64,000 bases of DNA, from NCBI GenBank assembly GCA_945885475.1, contig CAMCYR010000010.1, forward strand, positions 10,536 to 74,535, written 5' to 3'. This document shows positions 6,266 to 55,934 of this stretch, piece after piece. The first letter of the stretch is position 1, and each line of letters opens with the position of its first letter. Position numbers and translations under genes: made by a program. The notes below the pieces were generated by a model. It made no database searches, was not told the origin of the DNA, and worked only from the letters and a program-made list of their open reading frames with translations. This stretch comes from Chitinophaga pinensis. Its GTDB lineage: Bacteria; Bacteroidota; Bacteroidia; 2-12-FULL-35-15.

Positions 6266-9163
6266 TTATTTCGTCAGTGTTAGTTTACTTACCAGTTTAT
6301 TGTTTTCGTTTCTGATAGCAATAAAGTATGTCCCAGCGTTCAATTCACTCACATTCAACTGAACCGTTTGTCCTTGTATAGGATTTGCAAATGATTCTGT
6401 TTTCACCAATCTGCCTGCAACATCTGAAATTTCAATTACAGTAGCTGAATTCATATTGTAACGGAATGTAACATTTACTTCAGCGCTTGCAGGATTAGGA
6501 AAAATAACAACACCATTGTTTTCGCTTATTGCAGAAATTCCGGTTGTGCTGGTTATGTTTGCAAGAACAGGCACACGTGGGGTGCTGATACAATTGATTG
6601 CTGCACCTTCAATTTTCCAATCGTAGAAGTAATAATAATAAAGCGCTCCCTGGTTAGAACCAGTCAAGGATACTAATCCGGCCAATGTATATGGATATGT
6701 AACACCTGCTCCGCTTCTTTGCATTTTCGGATTGGTAGTACCAAAGCTAGTTGTATTAGTTGCCGCATCAGTTGTTAAGTGATAAGCTGTACCCGGTGTT
6801 AATGCAAAGTTTAAGGTGATAATAGTTGTATCAGCAGGTAAGTTGATCGTTAAACTGTTGATTGTTGTAAGTGATGCATCTTGTAAAATGATTTTACGGA
6901 TTCCTGCAACATTTGTATATACTTTAACTGTTTGAAGCGTACAAGCACCCATGACATCAAAATCAACAGAACCGTTTGTGGTAGCACCTGTTGAATATAA
7001 GCTGGAACCTGTGTGAATTGGCTGACCAGTGTAACCGACTAATCCCGGGTAAACTGTTGTTTCATCAACATAATACGTTGTAGTTGTATTGATAACGGGT
7101 GTCGCAAAACTTGTTCCTGTAGCAATTGAAGCCCCACCTGTAATTGCAGTGTACCAGTTGATTGTTCCACCAGAACCTGCAGCAGATAAAGTGAGAGAGA
7201 TCGGTCCTGATCCGGAAGCACCTGTTCCTGTAGGAGAAGGAGCAGCTAAAACAGTAACCATTGTTGGAGCTGCTGTCCAGTTCTGACACAATCCAGTTGT
7301 TGTTAAATTATAAGTTCCGGAAAGTGTCGGACTAATTATTTGTGTTGTAGCAGTAAATCCACTTGGACCTGTCCAGCTGTATGCAGAAGCAGGTGTACTT
7401 GAAAGCGTTAATATACCTCCACAAGAGCTTGATCCGGAAACGTTAATAGCAGGAGTTTCATCAGGATTTAAAGAAACAGGAACAGTTGCAGAAATATTTG
7501 TGCATCCGCTTGCGTTTGTAACCATTACATTAAAATTACCAGTAGTGCCTACCGAAATTGATTGTGTGGTTGCTCCATTAGACCATAAATACGAAGTGTA
7601 ACCAGCAGGAGCAGTTAATGTAACTGAACCACCTGTACAAAAGGAGTGAGGGCCTGGGATAACATTATCCGCAATCACGCAGCCACCTTCAATAACTGTA
7701 ACAAATTGTCCGGCCGTTAAACTTCCGAATGTATTTGTTAAACCCGAAGGCCATTCAATTAATGCAGAAGTGATCGTTACATCAGATCCTAAACCGAAAT
7801 GCAACTGCAATGAATTTTCTGTTCCGTATGATTCTCCCGCTCTCACTTCACGAACCTGCGTTCCGAATGAGCCTGTGATGGTAACTTTAGCACCGATTGC
7901 GCCATCGTTACTAACTGTTCCGGTTAAATCGAATGTGATAAAGTTGTTTGAATTGGTATTGTTCATCCACAATACATCATCAGTTGCAGTCGGACTGTTG
8001 TATACATTTCCGTAAGAAGCAACTAGATCAATAAAACCATCGTGATTTAAATCACCTGTTGCAAAAGATAAAAAGGAAGCCATTGCACCCCCAAAAGCAT
8101 TTGTTGATGCGGTATACGTTCCGTCATGGTTATTGTGATACATTTTCAGTCCAGGACCCGAGATCAGGATATCTAACCATCCGTCATTATCAAAATCTTC
8201 AACAAAAGACTCGATCGCATTAAAAGGAACCGTAAATCCTGAACCGGCTGTTACATCCGTGAACACGCCAGAACCGTTGTTTGAATAGATCTGACTTGCT
8301 TCTCCATGGTTTGTAAGCACAACATCCTGATCACCATCATTATCCAAATCACCAAAACTGGATGTCCATGTTTGTTTGTAGTTTCCTGGAAGTTCTAACC
8401 CTGTAGAAGCAGCATCTTCTGTGTATACTCCAAAGCCATTGTTCTTGAAAAGACGATCTCTTCTTCTTTGGTCTGTATAGCTGGTTGTACTTTGACGGCA
8501 ATGAGCAATGTATAAATCCATATCACCATCGTTATCAATATCCAGCCAAACGCTTCCGTAATTTCCAGAATCGTATGGGTCGCCACCGTAGGTCAATCCT
8601 GGGTTAATTTCTGTATCGATCAAAGAAGTAGTCAGGGATAATGTTCCCGCATTGTTCTTATAGATCTTCATGTAATCATTATCGTCGCAAACTGCTAAGT
8701 CTACCCATCCATCATTATCTATATCTCCAAAAGTAAGATTTTGAACAAAGTAAGAACCACTCAAAACTGTTGTAGTTTTGGTAATTGTACTTCCTGACCA
8801 AAATAATTTCACCAATGAAGTTGAACCAGCTCCCGTAGCAATATCTTTCCAGCCATTGTGATCAACATCGGCAAGAGCCATTCCCCAAACATTTCCGGCG
8901 CCAACATCACCTAAGTTGTAATGCGTGAACGTTCCGTTTGCTGTTTGCATCTGAATAACTAAATCAGATGCCTGATCCATTTTAACAATATCATCAAGGC
9001 CATCATTGTTGATGTCTACAACCGAAATAGAATTTCCGCAATGCGTTGCAATGGGTGTTAGACTATTTTTGTTTGTAAACGAAAATTGTGCATTCGCTCC
9101 GATTGTACCGAATAAGCAAGCTGTTGCAAGCACGAATGAATTTCGGAATGTAGATTTTACCAT
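6266..9163 (-). CDS. Secreted CRTAC1-like protein: FG-GAP/VCBS beta-propeller repeats, UnbV/ASPIC domain, Ig-like Thr/Ser-rich region and T9SS type-A C-terminal sorting domain
   Basis: Signal peptide. Repeated DxDNDGxxD calcium-binding loops (DINNDGLDDIV, DIDNDGWVDLAV, DLDNDGDQDVV, DFDNDGWLDIL). GESYGTENSLQLHFGLG (UnbV_ASPIC). C-terminus ...TYFIAIRNENNKLVSKLTLTK typical of a Por/T9SS CTD. Confidence 0.85.
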   Translation of the reverse strand: MVKSTFRNSFVLATACLFGTIGANAQFSFTNKNSLTPIATHCGNSISVVDINNDGLDDIVKMDQASDLVIQMQTANGTFTHYNLGDVGAGNVWGMALADVDHNGWKDIATGAGSTSLVKLFWSGSTITKTTTVLSGSYFVQNLTFGDIDNDGWVDLAVCDDNDYMKIYKNNAGTLSLTTSLIDTEINPGLTYGGDPYDSGNYGSVWLDIDNDGDMDLYIAHCRQSTTSYTDQRRRDRLFKNNGFGVYTEDAASTGLELPGNYKQTWTSSFGDLDNDGDQDVVLTNHGEASQIYSNNGSGVFTDVTAGSGFTVPFNAIESFVEDFDNDGWLDILISGPGLKMYHNNHDGTYTASTNAFGGAMASFLSFATGDLNHDGFIDLVASYGNVYNSPTATDDVLWMNNTNSNNFITFDLTGTVSNDGAIGAKVTITGSFGTQVREVRAGESYGTENSLQLHFGLGSDVTITSALIEWPSGLTNTFGSLTAGQFVTVIEGGCVIADNVIPGPHSFCTGGSVTLTAPAGYTSYLWSNGATTQSISVGTTGNFNVMVTNASGCTNISATVPVSLNPDETPAINVSGSSSCGGILTLSSTPASAYSWTGPSGFTATTQIISPTLSGTYNLTTTGLCQNWTAAPTMVTVLAAPSPTGTGASGSGPISLTLSAAGSGGTINWYTAITGGASIATGTSFATPVINTTTTYYVDETTVYPGLVGYTGQPIHTGSSLYSTGATTNGSVDFDVMGACTLQTVKVYTNVAGIRKIILQDASLTTINSLTINLPADTTIITLNFALTPGTAYHLTTDAATNTTSFGTTNPKMQRSGAGVTYPYTLAGLVSLTGSNQGALYYYYFYDWKIEGAAINCISTPRVPVLANITSTTGISAISENNGVVIFPNPASAEVNVTFRYNMNSATVIEISDVAGRLVKTESFANPIQGQTVQLNVSELNAGTYFIAIRNENNKLVSKLTLTK

Positions 9164-23219: not shown

Positions 23220-23234
23220 GAAGTAAAAATAAAC

Positions 23235-23268
23235 AAAAAAGGTCTCACATTTCTGTGAAACCTTTTTT
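23235..23268 (-). terminator. Intrinsic terminator candidate after rplT
   Basis: ggtctcaca-tttc-tgtgaaacc stem with one mismatch, flanked by an A6 run and a T6 run. Confidence 0.55.
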
Positions 23269-42904: not shown

Positions 42905-44440
42905 TTATTCTTCTTCGTTTGAAGGCGAAAATTTTTGATTCAGACAGAGACTTAGTTTTCTCTTGTAATCATCTTGAAGCCATTTAACATAATTGTCGGT
43001 GCTCTTGCAAATACAATAGGAAAATTTTTTTACGCGGTATTCAATGTCTTTGTCTAAAAGTATTACCAATTCTGCAGCATCAAAATAATCTACGCTGTTT
43101 TCTGCGCAAATTCTGGCATGTTGCTCGATCGATCTTTCAATTGCTACTTTTGGTCTTAAGCCTTGTTTTGCCACCAAAGCGTATTCATCCTTCATATTGA
43201 AGTCGATGTTTTCCGATTTACTAAATCTAGCCCTTAGGTCGGCAGGCATTTTATAGGTGAACTGGCGCTCAATTTCCTGGTCATTCCAAAGGCTTTCAAG
43301 ATAAAAATCTGGTGAGCGGAAAATGTCGTGCCAATTGATATACGATTCCCACAAGCCAAAACGTGCTGCATTGTTTCCAAGATCTATAACGTCAAAAGTA
43401 GATTTATTAGGCAGAATTCGTGATCCACGACCGATCATCTGGTGGTATAAGGTCAAGGATTTCGTTGCTCTGTTAATGATAATGGTTTCTACTGTTGGCT
43501 CATCGAAACCGGTTGTAAGAATCCCGACAGATGTTAAGATTGCATCCGGTTTTGTTTTGAACCACAACAATATTTCCTTGCGTTCCTGCTCTGTATTGGT
43601 ATTGTCTAAGTGCCGAATCTCATATCCGGCAGCGGTAAAAAGTGAATATACGTGCCGCGATGTATTGATCCCGTTATTAAAGATCAGGGTTTTTTTACCT
43701 TTTGATTGTTCTTCATAAGCACCAACCAATTTTTCCTGCATCAGGTAATTGGTATATAATCTATCCGATGAACTAACTGTGTAGTCACCGTCAATACCTA
43801 CTTTTAATGAACCTAGATTAACATCGTAGCAGTGCGTTGCTGCTTTTGACAAGAATCCCTTTTCTATCAATGATGCGATGGAATGCCCGACAATTAGTTC
43901 GTTGTAGGTTTCCTTCATCGGGAGTTTTATGTTTGAACTTAAAGGCGTTGCCGTCACGCCCAAGATCACACTGCTTTCTAGAAATTTAAATAGTTTTTTG
44001 AAGGAATTGTAATGTGCCTCATCAATGATTACTAGTCCAACTTTTTCTACTTCTAGTTTTTCGTCCTGAAGCCGGTTGTTCAGCGTTTCCACCATTGCGA
44101 CAAAACACTTAAAATCATCCTGATCTGGAAGTGTTTTTACTTTACTGTCGATGATCTTATTTTGGACACCAAATTCGTTGAGCATATTCGACGTTTGTGA
44201 ACAAAGCTCGATCCGATGCGTCAATATCAATACTTTTTTTCCTGTTTCTTTAATATAACGTTTTGCTATTTCAGAGAAGATAACAGTTTTTCCACCGCCT
44301 GTTGGCAGCTGATAAAGGAGATTATACTTTTCGGTGTGATTGTTTATGCGCTCAAAGATCTTGTCTATAGCATCCTGCTGGTAGTCGTACAGCTCCTTAC
44401 CTATTTTCTTTTCCTCTATTTCTGCAGACTCTAATGTCAT
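42905..44440 (-). CDS. Superfamily-2 DEAD/DEAH-box helicase family protein (ResIII-like N-domain, helicase C-domain, Cys-containing C-terminal extension)
   Basis: Walker A PTGGGKT, DEAH box IIDEAHY, motif III TATP and motif VI QMIGRGSR. Confidence 0.8.
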   Translation of the reverse strand: MTLESAEIEEKKIGKELYDYQQDAIDKIFERINNHTEKYNLLYQLPTGGGKTVIFSEIAKRYIKETGKKVLILTHRIELCSQTSNMLNEFGVQNKIIDSKVKTLPDQDDFKCFVAMVETLNNRLQDEKLEVEKVGLVIIDEAHYNSFKKLFKFLESSVILGVTATPLSSNIKLPMKETYNELIVGHSIASLIEKGFLSKAATHCYDVNLGSLKVGIDGDYTVSSSDRLYTNYLMQEKLVGAYEEQSKGKKTLIFNNGINTSRHVYSLFTAAGYEIRHLDNTNTEQERKEILLWFKTKPDAILTSVGILTTGFDEPTVETIIINRATKSLTLYHQMIGRGSRILPNKSTFDVIDLGNNAARFGLWESYINWHDIFRSPDFYLESLWNDQEIERQFTYKMPADLRARFSKSENIDFNMKDEYALVAKQGLRPKVAIERSIEQHARICAENSVDYFDAAELVILLDKDIEYRVKKFSYCICKSTDNYVKWLQDDYKRKLSLCLNQKFSPSNEEE

Positions 44441-44692: not shown

Positions 44693-45817
44693 TTACCCTC
44701 TGCGGATTTTTTGAATCTGAATTTTTAATTCATTTTCAATTGTCTTTAATCGTCCCATTTCTGAGCTGGTTACCAAACTAATTGAAAGTCCTTTTTTGCC
44801 GGCACGTCCTGTTCGCCCGCTTCGGTGTGTGTAATATTCTAATTGTTCAGGTAGTTGATAATGAATAACATATTGAAGGTTATCGACATCAATACCTCTT
44901 GCTGCCATATCGGTTGCGACAAGTATCTGAAGCTTCTCATTTTTAAAAGCGCGCATTACTTTTTCGCGATCACGCTGCTGCAGATCTCCATGAATTGCTT
45001 CCGCTGAATGGTTGCGTGCGATCAGTTGTTTTGCCAAGGATTGGGTGCCGTCTTTTGTTTTACAAAATACAATTCCTCTTCCTTTGCCTTGCGTTCTTAA
45101 AAATTCAAGTAAGGTGTTTAATTTGTCTTTTGTATCTATACATTGAACATATTGGTGTTCGATATCACGGTTGACAATATTTTTTACATCCACTTCTACT
45201 TTAAATGCATCATCATCCATATAAGAACGGATGATTTCTTTTAAGGAGTCGGGAATGGTGGCGGAAAACAACCAGGTAAACCGTTGTCCGTTTGTTTGTT
45301 CCAATATCGTATCGATGCTTGCTTTAAAACCCATACTCAGCATTTCGTCAGCTTCATCCAACACAATTGTTTTTACATCTTTTAAACTAATAGCTTTCCG
45401 CTCTAAAAGATCGATCAGTCGTCCGGGAGTTGAGACAACTATATGAGTTGGACGACTCAGATTCTTGATTTGAATTTCGATGGGTTCACCGCCATAAACA
45501 GATTCTACGAATATGCGATTTGGATTGTATCTGGCAACGCGGAACAATTGTTTCGCGATCTGTTGTCCCAATTCACGAGTCGGACATAAGACCAATGCCT
45601 GAACAGACGAACTGCTCGTATCAATTTTTTGTAATAAAGGCAAGCCGAAAGCCATTGTTTTTCCTGTACCTGTCTGCGCCTGCCCTATAAAATCAAATCC
45701 TTCTTTTAATAAAAACGGGATCGATTTTGTTTGAATTTCTGTCGGGTCAAAAATATTATTTTCAATCAGACCTTTGATTAATGCGTCTGATATGCCAAGT
45801 TCGGAGAATGTTGCCAA
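44693..45817 (-). CDS. DEAD-box ATP-dependent RNA helicase
   Basis: Q-motif, GQAQTGTGKT, DEAD, SAT and HRSGRTGRAG motifs. Confidence 0.93.
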   Translation of the reverse strand: MATFSELGISDALIKGLIENNIFDPTEIQTKSIPFLLKEGFDFIGQAQTGTGKTMAFGLPLLQKIDTSSSSVQALVLCPTRELGQQIAKQLFRVARYNPNRIFVESVYGGEPIEIQIKNLSRPTHIVVSTPGRLIDLLERKAISLKDVKTIVLDEADEMLSMGFKASIDTILEQTNGQRFTWLFSATIPDSLKEIIRSYMDDDAFKVEVDVKNIVNRDIEHQYVQCIDTKDKLNTLLEFLRTQGKGRGIVFCKTKDGTQSLAKQLIARNHSAEAIHGDLQQRDREKVMRAFKNEKLQILVATDMAARGIDVDNLQYVIHYQLPEQLEYYTHRSGRTGRAGKKGLSISLVTSSEMGRLKTIENELKIQIQKIRRG

Positions 45818-49559: not shown

Positions 49560-49585
49560 CAATACATGAATCTCATTTTAAAGAA

Positions 49586-49620
49586 CCTTCAAGCTTATAA
49601 ACTTGGAGGTTTTTTTATTT
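49586..49620 (+). terminator. Intrinsic terminator after the SPFH gene
   Basis: ccttcaag-cttataaa-cttggagg stem followed by T9. Confidence 0.75.
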
Positions 49621-50009
49621 AACAGGCTTTTAATTTGTTTATCTGCTATGTTTTATTAAATTAGCTAAATAATTAGATAAAAAAAAACGCATACATACAT
49701 CTCTTGCCGATTGTTTTACTCCCCTGAGGCACAGAAAATACGAACTGGATTCATTGCATCCCTTATTCTATCGTATTGTATTTTTCAAAAACAAAAAACA
49801 AGTGTTTCACTAAAAAGAAAGGAAATTCAGTTTTATAAAAACAAAAAATACAACGTCTTACTTTCTTTCGCACGAAAGCTCACTTCTAATGCAACTAAAA
49901 GCGTTATTTGGAGTACAAATTATAGTAAATTTGTTAAAGGCAAAGGTGCATCAGTCTCCATCTTAAAATATAAATGACTTACAAATTATTAAAAATCAAA
50001 TCTTAATAA

Positions 50010-50999
50010 TTGAATAAACCTTTTTACATATTATTTTTTGTTTTGATATTGAGTGTGTTTCAATACAAGTATTCTATTGCCCAAACGAATCTTGTTTACA
50101 ATGGTGATTTTGAATTGTTCAGTACTTGTCCTAGTGGAACGGGAGGTTTAAGTGATTGCACAGGATGGTTAAATCCTACAACTGCTACCCCCGATTATTT
50201 TAATGCCTGTGCTGGTGCAAGTATTGTGGGGATTCCGAACAATGCAGGCGGTAGTCAAAATGCTTTTTCAGGTGACGGTTATGCCGGTTTTATTGCATTT
50301 GAATATGTTCCAGGTCCTACGAGTTGGTGGTTTGAATATATTCAGGGGGAATTTATTCAACCACTTTTAGCTGGCCATAAATACGAACTCACATTTTACG
50401 TGAGTTGTGGTGAAGGCTATGCTGACATAGCCATTTCAAAGATAGGAGCTTATTCTTCAGTATTGCCAATTTCTAGAACGGATTCCAATCCTTTTTTGCT
50501 AATACCCCAAGTTGTAAATTCAAATGGAGTCATATCAGATACGGCAGGTTGGACAAAAATATCGGGAACATTCATTGCATCAGGTAATGAACAATTCATT
50601 ACTCTCGGTTATTTTTCTGATACAATAATTACAGATTCATTAAGAATACAAACTTTTTCCTTCAATCCAACTTCTACTCCAAGAACCTATTATTACGTTG
50701 ATGGAATTAATGTGATCGATGTGACACCAGAAATTAATATACCAAACATTTTTTCTCCAAACGGAGATGGAGTTAATGATTTTCTAGATATTTCGAATTT
50801 TGGTCTTTCTGAGATTTCATTTTGCATTTTTAACAGATGGGGTATTAAGGTGTTTGAAACAAATAAGGTAGGCGATAAATGGGATGGAAGAACCACTTCA
50901 GGTATTAGCTGTAATGATGGAACGTATTTCTATGTATTGAAAGCAAAAGACGACAAAACGAATTATGATTTAAAAGGATTTATTCAATTGTTAAGATAA
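50010..50999 (+). CDS. T9SS type-B C-terminal sorting domain (gliding-motility-associated CTD) secreted protein
   Basis: Signal peptide. C-terminal ...IFSPNGDGVNDFL...GTYFYVLKAKDD...GFIQLL is the type-B CTD signature. Confidence 0.8.
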   Translation: MNKPFYILFFVLILSVFQYKYSIAQTNLVYNGDFELFSTCPSGTGGLSDCTGWLNPTTATPDYFNACAGASIVGIPNNAGGSQNAFSGDGYAGFIAFEYVPGPTSWWFEYIQGEFIQPLLAGHKYELTFYVSCGEGYADIAISKIGAYSSVLPISRTDSNPFLLIPQVVNSNGVISDTAGWTKISGTFIASGNEQFITLGYFSDTIITDSLRIQTFSFNPTSTPRTYYYVDGINVIDVTPEINIPNIFSPNGDGVNDFLDISNFGLSEISFCIFNRWGIKVFETNKVGDKWDGRTTSGISCNDGTYFYVLKAKDDKTNYDLKGFIQLLR

Positions 51000-51010
51000 A
51001 ACTTAACAAA

Positions 51011-53836
51011 ATGAAAAATAAATTATTGATTAATATTGCTCTATTGAGCATTGGTTTTAGCTTGCAACAAAATATTGTTGCTCAGCAAGTCCCCACGACT
51101 ACAAGCCCTGCTCTTCCAGCACTTAACGGAAGAGATGCTAGAGATTTTTGGTCTAGAGCAGGCAATTCAGGAATAGGAATTAATAACCAAAATAATATTT
51201 TTGGAACTCTAGGTAGTTTTAACTCACCTATCTATACACAAACCAATGGTGTATTTCGTGAAAAGCTTAATGGAGATTTTACCGGTGGAACCCAATACCC
51301 AATCAACGGTTATACATTTGCAACGGGAGTAAATACCAGTGGCTATTTATTGCTGGGACAAAATAATCCAACACAACCCGGTGGAGCATCTCCGCTATTG
51401 TATAATGCAAAGGGTGCATTTTCACTATTGCATTTAAATGGTCCACAAAGTACAATTCCAGGTGCAGGTTTCACACAAGAATTTGGATATCGCCCTTGGA
51501 TGAAAACTGGAATTACATTTACAGGAAACAATGACTTGATGTACTTTGGAGTGAGAGCTTTACCTTCTGCACCTCAAGACCAAACCGAAATGGTTGTTTC
51601 ATGGAGTGATAACTCAGGAGCAGGTGCTGGACCAGATGATTTCGCTTTTAGATTTATCGGGTTAGGCGCTGGCACAACAATAAGTACAACTTTAAGTGAT
51701 GAAAATGATTTAGACGGAAGACACATTGCCCGCTTTGCACCAACCGGTGAAATGGGTTTAGGAAATACTTTTGGATCGCCAGTAGGTATTTATGTTCGTC
51801 CTCAAAATTTACTTCACATGAGTTTGGATTTGCAAAAACAAGTTTTTATGCAAATTACAAATCAAAATGGAACGGGACAAAATGCTGGTGATGGACTTCT
51901 AGTTGGTTATGCTCCAACAAGTGCAATTAACCTAGAAGCTAGAATAAACCAACAAGAGAACGACCGTTTAAGTTTGTATGCAAATAACGGAGAGCGTATA
52001 CGAATTATGCAAATTGGCGCGTTGAATAATGGTAATGCTTTTAATCCAGGTTCTTTAGCGACAAACTTAACACGTATTGGAGTTAGTCATGACCCCGCAC
52101 AACCAGTTACACGTCCTTTAAGTTTGATGCATTTAGGTTATAATACTGGTGCGACAAATGATGGTTGGAGAAATTGGATGGACGTAGGAACATTTACAGC
52201 CAATGGAACAGATAATATGTATGTTGGATTAAAAAGAGAACCAACAGCTTTTCCAATTGATAGATTTGATGCTGTAATTAATTGGGGAGATAACAGTGGG
52301 CCAGTTGGGCCTTTTGCTATTGGTCCAGATAATCTTAGATTTATTTTTACATCTGCAACTGTTGGAACACCTGGTTTACCACCTTCAAATGGTGTAAACG
52401 GAGTTGAAGGAATGAGAATGACGCCTTCAACTAACGTAGCAGTTACAAATGCTCATGTGTGGACTGGAATTGGCGGTGATCCGACTGTTAATCAATATGG
52501 TCCAGGCGGAACAAGTATTAATCCAACACAAACATTAGAAGTGAATTCTTCTGAAGCTACTACAGTAGTTGGTGGAAGTAGTGGGTTGCGTTTTACGAAT
52601 TTAAATACAACTTCTCCTATAACTGCTACAAATCCTGGGTTAGGAGTTTTAGCTGTAGATGCAGATGGTGATGTTATTTATGTGCCAAGTGGTGGAAATG
52701 CTTTTGGAAATATCTGTGGTGCAGCACCCGTTCCTCTAACCAATAACTGGGAAATTCCTCAAGGAATAAATACATATAATTTTAGTGGAGTTGGCGCAGT
52801 AAATATTACTCGTCTAACAACTTGTGCACCTATCGCTAAATTTCTAGTTGATGATAATTTCTACGCTCGTACTTCCATTGTTAGAAACACTACCAATATA
52901 GCAACAAATATTGCTGGTGTTTTTATTGGTTCTGATGTTGCTAAAGTACATGCAATCGTTGTACCTAATGGAGGAGGCAATGTTGGATTCGGGGTTGGCA
53001 GTCCAAATACTACTTATAGATTACATGTGAATGGAGGGTTTCTTTTAAACGGAAATTTTGATGGAGCTGGAACCCAAACATACGTTTCTGACCAGCAATT
53101 TAAAACGAATATTGATTCTATTCCAAGTGCCTTAAATATTATTAATCAACTAGATCCAAAGTCATTCTATTTTGATACAACAAATGTTTATGGCATGAAT
53201 TTTAGCGATAAAAAACAGTATGGTTTAATTGCTCAAGATGTTGAACTTGTTTTGCCTGAATTGGTAAGCAATCTGAATAAGATAGAAGAGAGAGATAGTT
53301 TAGGTAATATTATTACTGCGTCTGTTTCTTATAAAGCATTAAACTATAACGCTTTTATTACAATTTTAATAAAAGGAATGCAAGAGCAACAATCAAAAAT
53401 TGATAGTTTAAATGATGAAAATGATGAGCATGATTCTATCAATGCTTCTTTACAAAACCAAATCAATTTATTAGCTGACATGATCAACTCTTGTTGCAGC
53501 AGTCATTCGATGCAAACAAACAACAACTCAAACACTTCTGTTACATCTCAGAATTTAGATTTGAAAGATGATCAGTCAATTGTTTTGGAACAAAACGTTC
53601 CTAACCCTTTTGCTGAACAAACAACTATCAATTATTTTTTACCAGACAATGTTGTAAAAGCACAAATGCTTTTTTACAATGCACAAGGTAAATTAATTCA
53701 ATCTGTAGATTTGAATGAAAGAGGAAAAGGTAACTTAAATGTTTTTGCTAGTGATTTAAGCAATGGTATTTATACTTATACTTTAGTAGCTGATGGAAAA
53801 GTTGTTGAGACTAAAAAAATGGTTAAACAACAATAG
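51011..53836 (+). CDS. T9SS type-A CTD cargo protein with an internal duplicated beta-rich domain and a phage tail-fibre-type intramolecular chaperone (peptidase S74-like) domain
   Basis: Signal peptide. Internal repeat (VSWSDNSGAGAGPDDFAFRFIG vs INWGDNSGPVGPFAIGPDNLRFIF). Chaperone-of-endosialidase-type motifs (YRLHVNGG, SDQQFKTNI...LNIINQLDPKSFYFD...YGLIAQDVELVLPELV). A coiled-coil follows, then C-terminal NPFAEQTTINY...GIYTYTLVADGKVVETKKMV. Confidence 0.8.
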   Translation: MKNKLLINIALLSIGFSLQQNIVAQQVPTTTSPALPALNGRDARDFWSRAGNSGIGINNQNNIFGTLGSFNSPIYTQTNGVFREKLNGDFTGGTQYPINGYTFATGVNTSGYLLLGQNNPTQPGGASPLLYNAKGAFSLLHLNGPQSTIPGAGFTQEFGYRPWMKTGITFTGNNDLMYFGVRALPSAPQDQTEMVVSWSDNSGAGAGPDDFAFRFIGLGAGTTISTTLSDENDLDGRHIARFAPTGEMGLGNTFGSPVGIYVRPQNLLHMSLDLQKQVFMQITNQNGTGQNAGDGLLVGYAPTSAINLEARINQQENDRLSLYANNGERIRIMQIGALNNGNAFNPGSLATNLTRIGVSHDPAQPVTRPLSLMHLGYNTGATNDGWRNWMDVGTFTANGTDNMYVGLKREPTAFPIDRFDAVINWGDNSGPVGPFAIGPDNLRFIFTSATVGTPGLPPSNGVNGVEGMRMTPSTNVAVTNAHVWTGIGGDPTVNQYGPGGTSINPTQTLEVNSSEATTVVGGSSGLRFTNLNTTSPITATNPGLGVLAVDADGDVIYVPSGGNAFGNICGAAPVPLTNNWEIPQGINTYNFSGVGAVNITRLTTCAPIAKFLVDDNFYARTSIVRNTTNIATNIAGVFIGSDVAKVHAIVVPNGGGNVGFGVGSPNTTYRLHVNGGFLLNGNFDGAGTQTYVSDQQFKTNIDSIPSALNIINQLDPKSFYFDTTNVYGMNFSDKKQYGLIAQDVELVLPELVSNLNKIEERDSLGNIITASVSYKALNYNAFITILIKGMQEQQSKIDSLNDENDEHDSINASLQNQINLLADMINSCCSSHSMQTNNNSNTSVTSQNLDLKDDQSIVLEQNVPNPFAEQTTINYFLPDNVVKAQMLFYNAQGKLIQSVDLNERGKGNLNVFASDLSNGIYTYTLVADGKVVETKKMVKQQ

Positions 53837-53872: not shown

Positions 53873-53905
53873 AAAGTCCCGAGCTTAACACTCGGGACTT
53901 TTTAG
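53873..53905 (+). terminator. Intrinsic terminator after the T9SS gene pair (bidirectional with deaD)
   Basis: gtcccgag-cttaaca-ctcgggac stem flanked by an A5 run and a T5 run. Confidence 0.8.
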
Positions 53906-53921
53906 TTTATAACTTATCAGA

Positions 53922-55934
53922 TTAAAATTGTTTTCTAGGACGTCTTTCTCTTGAGAAATTACTTTTTCTATCTCCTCCTCCACTCGATTCGTTTTTAGAA
54001 TAGCTTTTTTCTGCAGATGAATTTTCATTCCCTTTAGATGAACTTCTTTCACGGTCGCTATAGGATTTGCGCTCCGTTGAAGGTCCTCTGTCTGAACGAT
54101 CACCATAAGACTTGCGTTCCCCGGAAGAACTTCCGCTAGAGCGATCACTATAAGATCTACGTTCACCAGAACCTGAACTTCTGCGTTCACCAGATCCGCT
54201 GTTACCTCTATAACCTCCTCTGTCGCTACCTCTATCACGGTTTCCACCGCCATATCCGCCTTTGCGTTCTGCACCACCAAATGATCTTCTGTTTCCACCT
54301 CCTTCATATCCACCACTTGATCTTCTTTCTCCACTGCTATCGCCACGAGATTCAATACGCACATTACGGTTGTTGTAACGTGCATTTTTGAATGTTCCCT
54401 GGATGATCTCAGCCGATTCAGTTTTCACTTCAACAAAAGAGAAACTACTTTTAACTTCAATGCTAACGATCGTTGCAATATCAACACCGGAAACTTCAGC
54501 AATGTACTGCTTCATTGCTGTGCTATCTAAACTATCTAATTCACCTAAGTTTATGAATAATTTAGTAATACCCGGCGTGGATGAAGAACGCTCTCTGTCT
54601 CTTGAAGCACCAGCATTTAGATCAGGAGCATTTTTGTAATAATCTAAAAAGCGGTTAAACTCAGTAGATACAAATCGCTTGATGATATCTTCTCTTGTCA
54701 GTTCTTTTAATTCATCGTAAATGTTTGGCAAGTAAGCTTCAATCGCTTCTTCATTTACTTCAACATTGTGAATTTTTTTCACCAAGCTGAACAATTGTTT
54801 TTCACACGCTTCGAATCCGGTTGGGATCGTACCTTGAATAAACTTCTTTTTGATGATACGTTCGATGATACGAATCTTTCCTACTTCTTTCATGTTGATG
54901 ATACAGATTGAAGTACCGGTTTTACCAGCACGAGCTGTTCTACCAGAGCGGTGCGTATAGTTTTCAATTTCGTCAGGCAAGTTATAATTGATAACGTGCG
55001 TAACATCATTCACATCAATACCACGCGCTGCAACATCAGTAGCTACAAGCATTTGCAAAGAACGAGAACGGTAACGTTTCATAACGTGATCGCGTTGTTG
55101 TTGAGATAAGTCACCGTGCAATGAATCCGCTCCGTAACCATCTTTAATTAATGCATCTGCAATTTCCTGTGTTTCGATACGTGTACGACAAAATACAATC
55201 GCAAAAATATCTGGATTTGAATCCGCGATACGTTTTAATGCTGCATATTTATCACGCGCTTGAACAACATAATAAATGTGTTCGATATTATCGTTACCTG
55301 AATTTTTTGTTCCTGCAGTAATTTCTACTGGTTTTTCCATGTAGTTTTTAGAGATACGCAAAACTTCATCTGGCATTGTTGCAGAAAACAACCAGGTGTT
55401 TTTTTCTTCTGGAGTTTGAGACAAAATGGTATCCAAATCTTCTTTGAATCCCATGTTCAACATCTCATCAGCCTCATCTAATACAGCGAAACGTACGTTA
55501 CTAAAGTTTACACGTCTGCGGTCAATCATATCACATAAACGACCAGGAGTTGCAACAACAATTTGTGCACCTTTCTTAATGTCGCGTGATTGATTATCGA
55601 TACTTGCTCCACCATATACAGCAACGATGTTTGCACCGTCAATGTATTTAGTATAACTCTGCAAATCGCGTGTAATTTGCATACACAGTTCTCGTGTAGG
55701 ACAAATAATTACAGCTTGTGTATCACGTGAAGTGAAATCTACAAGGTGTGTTAAAGGCAAGCCAAAGGCAGCCGTTTTTCCCGTTCCCGTTTGTGCCAAA
55801 GCAACTAAATCGGTGTTACCGGTTAATAATACAGGAATTACTTTTTCCTGGATAGGAGTTGGACTTTCAAAACCCAACTCTGTTACAGCTTTAACAATAG
55901 CATTGTTAAAGCCTAACGCTTCAAATTTGTTCAT
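53922..55934 (-). CDS. deaD: DEAD-box RNA helicase DeaD/CsdA-like with a DbpA RNA-binding domain and a long Arg/Ser/Gly-rich low-complexity tail
   Basis: AQTGTGKT, DEAD, SAT and HRSGRTARAG motifs. The C-terminal approximately 170 aa are (G/S)ERRS / RGG-like repeats. Confidence 0.92.
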   Translation of the reverse strand: MNKFEALGFNNAIVKAVTELGFESPTPIQEKVIPVLLTGNTDLVALAQTGTGKTAAFGLPLTHLVDFTSRDTQAVIICPTRELCMQITRDLQSYTKYIDGANIVAVYGGASIDNQSRDIKKGAQIVVATPGRLCDMIDRRRVNFSNVRFAVLDEADEMLNMGFKEDLDTILSQTPEEKNTWLFSATMPDEVLRISKNYMEKPVEITAGTKNSGNDNIEHIYYVVQARDKYAALKRIADSNPDIFAIVFCRTRIETQEIADALIKDGYGADSLHGDLSQQQRDHVMKRYRSRSLQMLVATDVAARGIDVNDVTHVINYNLPDEIENYTHRSGRTARAGKTGTSICIINMKEVGKIRIIERIIKKKFIQGTIPTGFEACEKQLFSLVKKIHNVEVNEEAIEAYLPNIYDELKELTREDIIKRFVSTEFNRFLDYYKNAPDLNAGASRDRERSSSTPGITKLFINLGELDSLDSTAMKQYIAEVSGVDIATIVSIEVKSSFSFVEVKTESAEIIQGTFKNARYNNRNVRIESRGDSSGERRSSGGYEGGGNRRSFGGAERKGGYGGGNRDRGSDRGGYRGNSGSGERRSSGSGERRSYSDRSSGSSSGERKSYGDRSDRGPSTERKSYSDRERSSSKGNENSSAEKSYSKNESSGGGDRKSNFSRERRPRKQF

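What the first reader, a model, noticed from the sequence alone, without database searches (positions are those of the whole stretch)
50010..53836. Adjacent T9SS cargo genes: a type-B CTD protein and a tail-fibre-like type-A CTD protein with an S74-type intramolecular chaperone domain
The 941-aa protein combines a signal peptide, a duplicated beta-rich domain and a domain with the hallmarks of the phage tail-spike / endosialidase intramolecular chaperone (S-D-x-x-x-K-x-N-I ... IAQDVELVLPELV). It then has a coiled coil and a T9SS type-A CTD. In phage fibres this domain trimerises the fibre and self-cleaves at the Ser. Here self-cleavage would separate the fibre body from the T9SS sorting signal. 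That makes an interesting possible interplay with CTD removal or attachment. It is preceded by a type-B CTD protein and a 450-bp non-coding gap. Together these look like an accessory surface or adhesin module.
Basis: partly seen in the sequence, partly recalled or inferred. Interest (0 to 1): 0.6.

Follow-up and report, generated by a model that had tools for sequence, protein, structure and literature searches.

The report
Self-cleaving secreted fibre with anchored partner
Two adjacent genes in an uncultured Bacteroidota chromosome encode a secreted fibre carrying the self-cleaving folding domain of phage tail fibres ahead of its export tag, and a small lectin-like surface protein; the pair is conserved in many species but has never been studied, and it raises the question of how a fibre that cuts off its own export signal is exported and kept on the cell.

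Summary
ORF 50010-50999 (329 aa) has a signal peptide, a CBM4-like jelly-roll domain and a T9SS type-B CTD. ORF 51011-53836 (941 aa) has a signal peptide, an internally duplicated beta-rich body, a low-confidence stalk, a Peptidase_S74 intramolecular chaperone domain (S693/K698) and a T9SS type-A CTD. All four domain calls pass curated cut-offs.

- The two genes form a conserved two-gene cassette. The partner lies less than 150 nt upstream in 45 of 55 complete homologous loci from different species, while the flanking genes differ.
- The Ser-x4-Lys dyad is present in 100 of 100 aligned S74 starts.
- The "coiled coil" is the S74 domain's own C-terminal helix.

The family is large: 512 loci in the species-genome collection and 784 50%-identity clusters, all named records from Bacteroidota. 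It is annotated only as "tail fiber domain-containing protein", and I found no paper linking S74 with T9SS.

Best reading: a trimeric surface fibre matured by autoproteolysis that detaches it from its export tag, as in eukaryotic MYRF, and functionally tied to the type-B-anchored partner. Cleavage, trimer formation, the order of events and partner binding are inferred, not shown.

I file it as a new variant of a known kind, of moderate to high interest.

The parts
49560..50009 (+). Non-coding leader and promoter region upstream of the cassette. A terminator-like hairpin of the preceding Band_7 gene lies at about 49584-49615.
   Evidence: Sequence read. No Rfam family reaches threshold. Promoter-like sites are not enriched over shuffles. 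Homologous cassettes also have 230-350 nt leaders.
50010..50084 (+). Partner protein, signal peptide (residues 1-25, MNKPFYILFFVLILSVFQYKYSIAQ).
   Evidence: ORF. The N-terminal NKPFYI...AQTNL is conserved in 40 homologues, which supports the TTG start.
50085..50732 (+). Partner protein, N-terminal jelly-roll (CBM4/9-like, lectin- or adhesin-like) domain, residues 26-241.
   Evidence: AlphaFold2 mean pLDDT 81. Foldseek against PDB: Epf adhesin 4es9 E 5.5e-7; CBM4-2 4bj0 E 3.5e-5, TM 0.58; gingipain cleaved-adhesin domains; Tuc2009 tripod. Weak CBM_4_9 Pfam hits in 9 of 40 family members.
50733..50999 (+). Partner protein, T9SS type-B C-terminal domain (residues 242-329) plus stop codon.
   Evidence: Pfam CHU_C E 1.5e-23, 83.2 bits against 27. 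TIGR04131 48.4 bits against 35. Translation.
51011..51082 (+). Fibre protein, signal peptide (residues 1-24). The start lies 11 nt after the partner's stop codon, so co-transcription is likely.
   Evidence: The AQ|Q cleavage-site consensus is conserved.
51221..52444 (+). Fibre protein, family-specific beta-rich body made of two homologous repeats (about residues 71-250 and 317-478).
   Evidence: HHalign repeat 1 against repeat 2: probability 99.8%, E 5e-28. AlphaFold2 pLDDT about 70-85. No Pfam, PDB-sequence or Foldseek relative. 784 cluster representatives carry it, always at the N-terminus.
52445..53086 (+). Fibre protein, stalk (residues 479-692). Presumed trimeric, and variable in length and sequence among homologues. 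Contains the conserved motif GGSSGLRFTNLN...NPGLGVLAVDADGDVIYV.
   Evidence: pLDDT below 50 as a monomer. It is the most divergent segment, mean distance 0.69. Homologues insert collagen GXY repeats here (PF01391; P0014). No phage match.
53087..53497 (+). Fibre protein, S74 / ICA intramolecular chaperone auto-processing domain (residues 693-829). Predicted nucleophile S693 (53087-53089) and base K698. Its C-terminal helix 780-829 is the 'coiled coil'.
   Evidence: PF13884 E 1e-12. PHROG tail-fibre C-termini, best E 7e-21. Family profile against PDB sequences: phage S16 gp37 6f45 E 1.4e-13, MyRF ICA 7dc3 E 1.4e-8. Foldseek: 7dc3 E 2e-4, 3gw6 E 1.4e-3. S, D and K are invariant in 36 of 36 sequences and in 100 of 100 aligned starts. 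Phage tail fibres match only this part.
53498..53590 (+). Fibre protein, Ser/Asn/Thr-rich linker (residues 830-860) beginning just after conserved Cys residues (C827/C828; C829 column at least 90% conserved).
   Evidence: pLDDT below 50. Conservation.
53591..53836 (+). Fibre protein, T9SS type-A C-terminal domain (residues 861-941) plus stop codon.
   Evidence: PF18962 29.3 bits against 27. TIGR04183 31.9 bits against 23. Translation. It is the most conserved segment of the family, mean distance 0.38.

Best explanation
The locus is a two-gene operon for a cell-surface fibre system exported by the Bacteroidota type IX secretion system (T9SS).

Shown by sequence or structure tests:
- Both products have Sec signal peptides.
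- The 941-aa protein reads, in order: a family-specific duplicated body, a variable stalk, a phage-type S74/ICA intramolecular chaperone domain with an intact Ser693-Lys698 dyad, a linker, and a type-A CTD.
- The 329-aa protein is a CBM4-like jelly roll fused to a type-B CTD.
- The gene pair is conserved across many species.

Inferred mechanism:
1. After Sec export, the S74 domain's C-terminal helices form a three-helix coiled coil. This trimerises the chains and templates folding of the stalk from C to N, as in phage fibres and MYRF.
2. The three type-A CTDs take the fibre through the SprA/Sov translocon to the PorV shuttle.
3. Trimer-dependent autoproteolysis before Ser693 then detaches the mature fibre (about residues 25-692) from the remnant made of S74 domain, linker and CTD. 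The export tag is therefore removed by the cargo itself, independently of or in addition to PorU.
4. The co-encoded jelly-roll protein goes out by the type-B route. Its CTD is not cleaved and it stays on a PorP/SprF-type outer-membrane shuttle encoded elsewhere. There it acts with the fibre, most likely as its surface dock or adaptor, probably through the fibre's N-terminal body.

My estimates for the steps: secreted T9SS cargo about 0.9; trimeric fibre with active self-cleavage about 0.7; functional coupling of the two proteins about 0.6; partner as physical anchor about 0.3.
For: Domain calls:
- All four domain calls pass curated thresholds.
- The S74 call is supported independently by PHROGs, by a family profile against PDB sequences (6f45 E 1.4e-13, 7dc3 E 1.4e-8, with the S-x4-K residues aligned), and by the predicted fold (7dc3, 3gw6).
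- S693, D694 and K698 are invariant in 36 of 36 full-length homologues and in 100 of 100 aligned S74 starts from species genomes. That implies selection for catalysis, not only for trimerisation.

Trimeric fibre:
- The stalk is unfoldable as a monomer (pLDDT below 50).
- Homologues place collagen GXY repeats in the stalk. Other variants carry Asn/Gly-rich repeats as their N-terminal body in place of the duplicated domain.
- In MyRF, cleavage needs the trimer, the C-terminal helix forms the triple coiled coil, and cleavage frees the N-terminal trimer from a C-terminal anchor (PMC8326128).

Operon:
- The intergenic distance is 11 nt.
- A homologue of the partner's N-domain lies less than 150 nt upstream on the same strand in 45 of 55 complete loci, while the flanking genes differ.
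- The partner is often present as 2-3 tandem paralogues.

Where the partner couples:
- Divergence of the partner's N-domain tracks the fibre body best: Mantel r 0.32, p 5e-4.
- It does not track the CTD (r 0.10, not significant).
- The physically nearer partner CTD tracks the body less well (r 0.16).

Type-B biology:
- Type-B CTDs are not cleaved and are held by PorP/SprF shuttles (PMC10202324).
- Orphan type-B cargo use a shuttle encoded elsewhere (PMC12618676).

Not a phage gene:
- The context is chromosomal housekeeping genes.
- Only 1 weak hit appeared in 2.9 million viral contigs.
Against: - No experiment or proteomic record shows cleavage, trimer formation or surface location for any family member. 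None was found in the literature library.
- The order of events is a real problem. If the trimer cleaves in the periplasm, the fibre loses its only export signal. The model needs cleavage to be delayed, or the fragments to stay associated until transport is complete.
- The partner-fibre interaction rests only on synteny and a weak mirror-tree signal, which gene linkage could partly explain.
- 9 of 55 loci have no type-B gene nearby.
- 7 of 10 variants without the duplicated body still have the partner. This weakens the idea that the body is the docking site.
- The body has no recognisable fold relative, so the fibre's ligand or activity is unknown.
- Only a monomer could be modelled.
Confidence: 0.55

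Rival explanations
1. The fibre is a released, soluble secreted trimer, and the partner is an unrelated adhesin that merely shares a promoter. Self-cleavage at S693 sheds the fibre into the medium, for example as a polysaccharide-binding or depolymerising agent. The type-B protein works independently on the cell surface.
For: Cleavage removes every known anchoring element from the fibre (domain order). Many type-A cargo are released rather than anchored (PMC10202324). 9 of 55 homologous loci lack an adjacent type-B gene.
Against: Adjacency in 45 of 55 loci at about 10-15 nt spacing, in otherwise unrelated neighbourhoods and including tandem partner paralogues, is hard to explain without a functional link. 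Partner divergence co-varies with the fibre body more than with the nearer partner CTD.
Confidence: 0.22
2. The S74 domain serves here only as a trimerisation and folding module and does not cleave, or cleaves inefficiently. The fibre stays covalently joined to the linker. PorU removes the CTD and attaches the trimer by its C-terminus to anionic LPS. The result is a C-terminally anchored fibre with the duplicated body at the distal tip.
For: This avoids the paradox of losing the export signal before transport. Non-cleaving S-to-A mutants of phage and MyRF ICA domains still trimerise; this is my recollection for the phage enzymes, and the MyRF S587A protein was crystallised as a trimer (PMC8326128). 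The type-A CTD is unusually well conserved.
Against: Ser, Asp and Lys of the catalytic motif are invariant in 100 of 100 S74 copies across distant species. Trimerisation alone would not require this. In MyRF, trimerisation is sufficient to activate cleavage.
Confidence: 0.15
3. The 941-aa gene is a phage, prophage or tailocin tail-fibre gene, or a recent remnant of one, not a bacterial secretion substrate.
For: The S74 domain and PHROG tail-fibre hits. NCBI names relatives 'tail fiber domain-containing protein'.
Against: It has a Sec signal peptide and a T9SS CTD, which virion proteins do not need. The neighbours are gyrA, DEAD-box helicases, Band_7 and an Rce1-like protease, with no phage genes. 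Phage records match only the S74 part, at 33-36% identity. Only 1 weak hit in 2.9 million viral contigs. There are 512 chromosomal loci across species.
Confidence: 0.03

Closest known systems
MYRF / MrfA membrane-bound transcription factors (eukaryotic ICA domain; PDB 7dc3)
   Same: The S74/ICA domain is internal, not C-terminal. It is preceded by a beta-helical stalk and followed by a segment that fixes or targets the protein. A Ser-x4-Lys dyad is present. The C-terminal helix forms the triple coiled coil. Trimer-dependent self-cleavage frees the N-terminal trimer from the C-terminal part (PMC8326128). The family profile matches 7dc3 at E 1.4e-8 and the fold matches at E 2e-4.
   Different: MYRF is eukaryotic, sits in the ER membrane and releases a DNA-binding trimer. 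Here the downstream element is a bacterial T9SS export domain rather than a transmembrane helix, the released part is an extracellular fibre, and a partner gene is co-encoded.
Phage tail fibres and spikes with a C-terminal intramolecular chaperone (endosialidase endoNF CIMCD, PDB 3gw6; phage S16/T2-type gp37, PDB 6f45; T5-like L-shaped fibres)
   Same: Homologous S74 domain: 6f45 E 1.4e-13; 33-36% identity to Salmonella phage fibres. The upstream fibre is variable. In S16/T2-type phages a separately encoded small adhesin (gp38, neighbouring gene) attaches to the fibre; this last point is from my own knowledge and was not tested here.
   Different: In phages the S74 domain is the extreme C-terminus and folding is cytoplasmic. 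Here there is a Sec signal peptide, folding outside the cytoplasm, a T9SS CTD after the S74 domain, a non-phage body, and a chromosomal non-prophage context.
Canonical T9SS type-A cargo processed by the PorU sortase (for example gingipain RgpB)
   Same: Signal peptide plus a C-terminal Ig-like type-A CTD that passes the Pfam and TIGRFAM cut-offs. Presumably recognised by PorV.
   Different: Known cargo rely on PorU to remove the CTD. This family carries its own protease site about 170 residues upstream of the CTD, implying a second, cargo-autonomous way of shedding the tag, and presumably trimeric cargo.
Type-B CTD surface adhesins held by PorP/SprF shuttles (SprB/SprF; P. gingivalis PG1035/PorP; F. 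johnsoniae orphan type-B cargo)
   Same: The partner has a bona fide type-B CTD (83 bits). Like the orphan cargo of PMC12618676, it has no adjacent porP/sprF gene.
   Different: It is very small (329 aa) with a single jelly-roll domain, and it is genetically tied to a type-A cargo gene rather than to a shuttle gene.
Autochaperone domain of type Va autotransporter passengers
   Same: Works alike in principle: a C-terminal passenger module that templates C-to-N folding of a beta-helical passenger outside the cytoplasm without ATP (PMC5767081, listed).
   Different: No sequence or fold relationship. Autotransporter passengers are monomeric and use a different secretion system. This is a functional analogy only.

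Membership tests
Peptidase S74 / ICA (intramolecular chaperone auto-processing) domain | Significant match to the family profile above the curated threshold | tested here: met
   PF13884 at residues 693-752: E 1e-12, 48.6 bits against 22. All 36 of 36 homologues match, best E 3.5e-28.
Peptidase S74 / ICA (intramolecular chaperone auto-processing) domain | Catalytic Ser and Lys five residues apart at the N-terminal edge of the domain (endoNF S911/K916; MyRF S587/K592) | tested here: met
   S693-D-Q-Q-F-K698, aligned to SDRRIK of 6f45 and to the mutated ADLRAK of 7dc3. Invariant.
Peptidase S74 / ICA (intramolecular chaperone auto-processing) domain | ICA fold with a C-terminal helix able to form a triple coiled coil | tested here: met
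   AlphaFold2 helix 780-829, pLDDT about 71-79. Foldseek 7dc3 E 2.3e-4 (TM to target 0.62) and 3gw6 E 1.4e-3. Only a monomer was modelled, so the coiled coil itself is inferred.
Peptidase S74 / ICA (intramolecular chaperone auto-processing) domain | Trimer-dependent autoproteolysis actually occurs | not testable with these tools
   Needs protein chemistry. No proteomic data were found for any family member.
T9SS type-A CTD cargo (PF18962 / TIGR04183) | C-terminal about 80-residue Ig-like domain matching the family models above cut-off, at the extreme C-terminus | tested here: met
   PF18962 29.3 bits against 27. TIGR04183 31.9 bits against 23, residues 864-940 of 941. Predicted beta-sandwich, pLDDT about 66-83 over 870-940.
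T9SS type-A CTD cargo (PF18962 / TIGR04183) | N-terminal Sec signal peptide | tested here: met
   Read from the sequence: positive n-region, hydrophobic core, and an AQ|Q site conserved in the family. No dedicated predictor was available.
T9SS type-A CTD cargo (PF18962 / TIGR04183) | Host organism has a T9SS, and secretion depends on it | tested here: inconclusive
   All named homologue records are Bacteroidota. The window holds another Por_Secre_tail cargo at 6266-9163. Core T9SS genes lie outside the window, and dependence on them was not tested.
T9SS type-B CTD cargo (PF13585 / TIGR04131) | C-terminal CHU_C / Bac_Flav_CTERM domain above cut-off | tested here: met
   PF13585 83.2 bits against 27. 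TIGR04131 48.4 bits against 35, residues 242-329 of 329.
T9SS type-B CTD cargo (PF13585 / TIGR04131) | Cognate PorP/SprF-family shuttle gene clustered with the cargo gene (usual but not universal) | tested here: not met
   No PorP/SprF family appears among the precomputed Pfam hits for genes of near-identical contigs covering window 1-36680 and 41087-63833. The remainder is clpB and gyrA. This is compatible with the 'orphan' type-B cargo described in PMC12618676.
Phage tail fibre (virion structural protein) | Encoded in a phage or prophage structural module and assembled onto a virion | tested here: not met
   Housekeeping neighbours and no phage genes. Signal peptide and T9SS CTD are present. 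Only the S74 part matches phage records. 1 weak hit in 2.9 million viral contigs.
CBM4/9-type carbohydrate-binding module (partner N-domain) | Jelly-roll fold and family profile match | tested here: inconclusive
   Fold match to CBM4-2 (E 3.5e-5, TM 0.58) and to adhesin jelly rolls. The Pfam CBM_4_9 hit is only sub-threshold, in 9 of 40 members, best E 3.4e-4. Sugar binding was not tested.

The most novel reading that the evidence does not exclude
The cassette is a two-signal relay for building an exchangeable surface fibre. The type-A CTD only carries the trimer across the outer membrane. S74 autoproteolysis then acts as a cargo-encoded, PorU-independent release step that hands the mature fibre to the type-B-anchored jelly-roll protein. 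Because type-B cargo ride on PorP/SprF shuttles that are coupled to the gliding track, the partner could load the fibre onto the motility machinery as a modular adhesin. This would be a bacterial counterpart of MYRF-type regulated release, and the first oligomeric, self-processing class of T9SS cargo.
Probability: 0.15. Interest if true: 0.8.

Novelty: new variant of a known kind. Interest (0 to 1): 0.6.

Why it matters
T9SS cargo are thought to lose their C-terminal signal only through the PorU sortase, and no oligomeric self-processing cargo has been described. This family is large and found only in Bacteroidota among named records. It places a phage/MYRF-type trimerisation and autocleavage domain directly between passenger and export tag, with the catalytic dyad strictly conserved.

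That makes three open questions directly testable:
- Does the T9SS translocon carry pre-assembled trimers?
- How are cargo folding and tag removal ordered in time?
- How do type-A and type-B routes cooperate on one structure?

It also documents a third independent setting, after phage fibres and eukaryotic MYRF, in which the ICA domain is used to release a trimer from a tether. Finally, it defines two uncharacterised domains (the duplicated body and the partner jelly roll) for study in cultured carriers such as Fluviicola, Taishania and Paracrocinitomix.

Tried and rejected
- BLASTP self-comparison for the duplication found nothing. HHalign on family profiles was needed.
- phmmer of the whole protein, and of the S74 segment alone, against PDB sequences gave nothing significant. 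The family profile was needed.
- Foldseek of the full-length model against PDB and against viral structures recognised only the S74 domain and Ig-like CTD matches. The body stayed unmatched.
- Prophage or tailocin origin: rejected on context and on the viral-contig scan.
- Regulatory RNA in the 450-nt leader: only a sub-threshold L10_leader match (E 0.077) that overlaps the upstream gene's terminator. Rejected.
- Sigma-70-type promoter scan: fewer sites than in shuffles, so uninformative. Bacteroidota promoters are not covered by that scan.
- An adjacent PorP/SprF partner: looked for and absent.
- Six literature searches found no paper linking S74/ICA with T9SS.
- Organism name: cluster look-up gave no taxon for the window's own proteins.

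Full report
**1. What is in the sequence**

Two same-strand ORFs lie 11 nt apart at 50010-50999 (329 aa, TTG start) and 51011-53836 (941 aa). Upstream is a 450-nt untranslated stretch (49560-50009). It begins with a terminator-like hairpin belonging to the preceding Band_7 gene and contains no Rfam family. Downstream is a convergent DEAD-box helicase gene.

**2. Domain content of the 941-aa protein**

Pfam finds Peptidase_S74 at 693-752 (E 1e-12, 48.6 bits against a cut-off of 22) and the T9SS type-A sorting domain at 864-937 (29.3 bits against 27). NCBIfam TIGR04183 agrees (31.9 bits against 23).

Eleven PHROG tail-fibre and baseplate families match residues about 625-827, always at their own C-termini. 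A profile of 36 full-length homologues matches two solved structures by sequence, with the Ser-x4-Lys residues aligned:
- phage S16 long-tail-fibre distal subunit, 6f45, E 1.4e-13;
- MyRF ICA domain, 7dc3, E 1.4e-8.

The AlphaFold2 monomer has mean pLDDT 61 and divides into these regions:

| Residues | Region | Confidence |
|---|---|---|
| 70-475 | all-beta body | moderate, pLDDT about 70-85 |
| 485-693 | stalk | not foldable as a monomer, pLDDT below 50 |
| about 700-829 | S74 domain, ending in a 50-residue helix (780-829) | fair |
| 830-866 | linker | disordered |
| 868-936 | beta-sandwich CTD | fair |

Foldseek against the PDB recognises only the S74 part (7dc3 E 2e-4; endoNF chaperone 3gw6 E 1.4e-3) and generic Ig-like folds for the CTD. 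The viral structure library returns only S74-bearing fibres.

In MyRF the C-terminal helix of the ICA domain is the trimerising triple coiled coil (PMC8326128).

BLAST could not see the claimed duplication. Profile-profile comparison shows it is real: residues about 71-250 against 317-478, probability 99.8%, E 5e-28. The body has no Pfam, PDB or fold relative. A full scan of 1.84 billion cluster representatives finds it in 784 clusters; in the 150 best hits listed it sits at or near the N-terminus, mostly in proteins of about 900-1300 aa (the shorter entries look like fragments).

**3. The 329-aa protein**

It has a signal peptide, an N-domain of about 215 residues, and a type-B CTD (CHU_C 83 bits against 27; TIGR04131 48 bits against 35). 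Its AlphaFold2 model (pLDDT 81) shows a jelly roll. The closest structures are:
- the Streptococcus Epf adhesin domain, E 5.5e-7;
- CBM4-2 modules, E 3.5e-5, TM 0.58;
- the gingipain "cleaved adhesin" domains;
- the Tuc2009 baseplate tripod.

Nine of 40 family members give weak CBM_4_9 Pfam hits. It is therefore a lectin- or adhesin-like domain on a type-B anchor.

**4. Family and context**

The fibre has at least 416 homologues in the protein collection. Nearly all carry PF13884 plus PF18962, and where they are named at all the name is "tail fiber domain-containing protein". A scan of one genome per species found 512 loci. All named records are Bacteroidota, mostly uncultured Crocinitomicaceae, Vicingaceae, Fluviicola, Lishizhenia and Chitinophagaceae. 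Cultured carriers include Taishania pollutisoli, Ulvibacter antarcticus and Fluviicola chungangensis and Paracrocinitomix mangrovi.

The window's neighbours are housekeeping genes: gyrA, clpB, three DEAD/DEAH helicases, Band_7 and an Rce1-like protease. No phage genes are present. Phage records match only the S74 part, at 33-36% identity. Only one weak hit appeared in 2.9 million viral contigs. A phage or prophage origin for this gene is rejected.

**5. The pair is a conserved cassette**

In three distant homologues checked by gene look-up, a CHU_C protein of 329-355 aa sits directly upstream while all other neighbours differ.

I then took complete S74+CTD genes with at least 1300 nt of upstream sequence from the species-genome loci. 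In 45 of 55, a homologue of the partner's N-domain (not just its CTD) lies less than 150 nt upstream on the same strand, usually 10-15 nt away. One further locus has a different CHU_C protein there. Many loci have two or three tandem partner paralogues.

The partner is also present upstream of 7 of 10 family variants whose N-terminal body is replaced by Asn/Gly-rich repeats. The partner family has at least 524 members.

Across 34 pairs, divergence of the partner's N-domain correlates with each fibre segment as follows:

| Fibre segment | Mantel r with partner N-domain |
|---|---|
| repeat 1 | 0.32 (p 5e-4) |
| repeat 2 | 0.28 |
| stalk | 0.20 |
| S74 domain | 0.15 |
| CTD | 0.10 (not significant) |

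The partner's own CTD, although physically nearer to the fibre gene, correlates with repeat 1 only at r 0.16. This is weak evidence for co-evolution of the partner jelly roll with the fibre's N-terminal body. Linkage cannot be fully excluded.

**6. Catalytic competence**

S693, D694 and K698 are invariant in 36 of 36 aligned full-length homologues. The S-D-x3-K motif is present in 100 of 100 aligned S74 starts from the species genomes, including both copies in proteins that carry two S74 domains. Such conservation is expected for an active Ser-Lys autoprotease and not for a mere trimerisation module.

**7. Most likely mechanism** (inferred except where cited)

Both proteins cross the inner membrane by Sec. 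The S74 helices form the triple coiled coil, trimerise the chains and template the stalk. Collagen repeats in homologous stalks fit an obligate trimer. The type-A CTDs direct the fibre to the translocon and the PorV shuttle. Type-A CTDs are recognised by PorV and normally removed by PorU (PMC10202324, PMC12618676).

Trimer-dependent cleavage before S693 then frees the mature fibre (about residues 25-692) from the remnant made of S74 domain, linker and CTD. MyRF frees its N-terminal trimer from the ER membrane in the same way.

The partner follows the type-B route. Its CTD is not cleaved and it remains bound to a PorP/SprF-type shuttle. No such gene is in the window, which matches the "orphan" type-B cargo that use a shuttle encoded elsewhere. 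The conserved operon suggests that the partner docks or adapts the released fibre on the surface.

The unresolved point is timing. Cleavage in the periplasm would strip the fibre of its export signal. So either cleavage is delayed until after transport, or the fragments stay associated, or folding and trimerisation happen only outside the cell.

**8. Rivals**

- A shed soluble fibre with an unrelated co-transcribed adhesin. The strength of the synteny argues against it.
- A non-cleaving S74 domain giving a PorU- and LPS-anchored fibre. The invariant dyad argues against it.
- A phage remnant. Rejected on context and on the viral scans.

**9. Comparison with what is known, and novelty**

The S74 call passes every membership feature that could be tested by computation. 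Actual cleavage could not be tested. Both CTD calls pass their curated cut-offs. The one usual type-B feature not met is an adjacent porP/sprF gene.

The closest functional analogue is MYRF, with an internal ICA domain that releases a trimer from a tether. The closest homologues of the S74 part are phage fibres.

Six full-text searches found no paper that connects S74/ICA with T9SS or discusses this architecture. Databases annotate the family only generically.

I therefore rate it a new variant of a known kind: known parts, in a combination with a conserved partner that has not been described or explained. The window's genes are ordinary members of that uncharacterised family.

Noticed in passing
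Homologous loci, e.g. L031 1360-4614 (S74 domains at residues 724-839 and 834-970); L051 1200-4883 (670-783 and 950-1113); L065, L068, L072: About 15 of the 80 species-genome homologues carry two S74 domains, either in tandem or separated by a second stalk. Both copies keep the S-D-x3-K dyad. Double cleavage would release an internal fragment, and I know of no phage fibre with this arrangement.
   Followed up: partly
L048 3997-6807, L050 4849-7332, L089 4267-6831 and 8220-10709, L090 5056-7650, L057 13-2655: Family variants keep the stalk motif, S74 domain and CTD but replace the duplicated body with long Asn/Gly-rich repeats (NTFxGxxAGxxNTTGxxNTF...) reminiscent of trimeric-autotransporter head repeats. 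L048, L050, both L089 genes and L090 still have the partner gene directly upstream (L057 starts too near the contig end to tell).
   Followed up: partly
window 53591-53833 (fibre CTD, residues 861-941): The type-A CTD is the most conserved segment of the whole family (mean pairwise distance 0.38, against 0.55-0.69 for body, stalk and S74 domain). This is unexpected for a disposable export tag.
   Followed up: no
window about 23231-23245, compared with L091 13452-15000: A 98-99% identical metagenomic contig carries an extra 1.55-kb segment between rplT and a glycosyltransferase gene. The segment encodes a PKD-domain protein with a T9SS type-A CTD. The window lacks it, so this is a strain-level presence/absence of a T9SS cargo gene.
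   Followed up: partly
window 6266-9163 (-): Another T9SS type-A cargo: a 965-aa protein with FG-GAP/ASPIC repeats, Ig_7 and Por_Secre_tail.
   Followed up: no
window 53922-55934 (-), with overlapping ORF 53885-54385 (-): This DEAD-box/DbpA helicase has a C-terminal tail of about 150 residues rich in Arg, Gly and Ser (RGG/SGERR repeats). The 166-aa ORF listed in another frame over the same DNA is probably spurious. Three DEAD/DEAH helicase genes lie within 13 kb (42905-44440, 44693-45817, 53922-55934).
   Followed up: no
L093 1-1194 (IMG/VR contig IMGVR_UViG_3300000103_000035): This is the only viral-collection hit. It is a 397-aa protein with a signal peptide, a short body, an S74 domain (SDASLK) and a T9SS-type CTD, at the very end of a contig classed as viral. 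It may be bacterial flank or a genuine phage-borne copy.
   Followed up: partly
L009 5735-7987 (Paracrocinitomix mangrovi CP091819); also L015, L034, L040, L049, L056, L064, L083: The partner gene is often present as two or three tandem paralogues upstream of a single fibre gene. This suggests diversification of the jelly-roll component.
   Followed up: no
window 51011-53836, residues 569, 605 and 827-829: Cysteines are conserved in the stalk (C569 and C605, at least 90%) and at the end of the S74 helix (the C829 column at least 90%; the window has C827-C828). They could form intra-chain or inter-chain disulfides in the oxidising periplasm or outside the cell.
   Followed up: no
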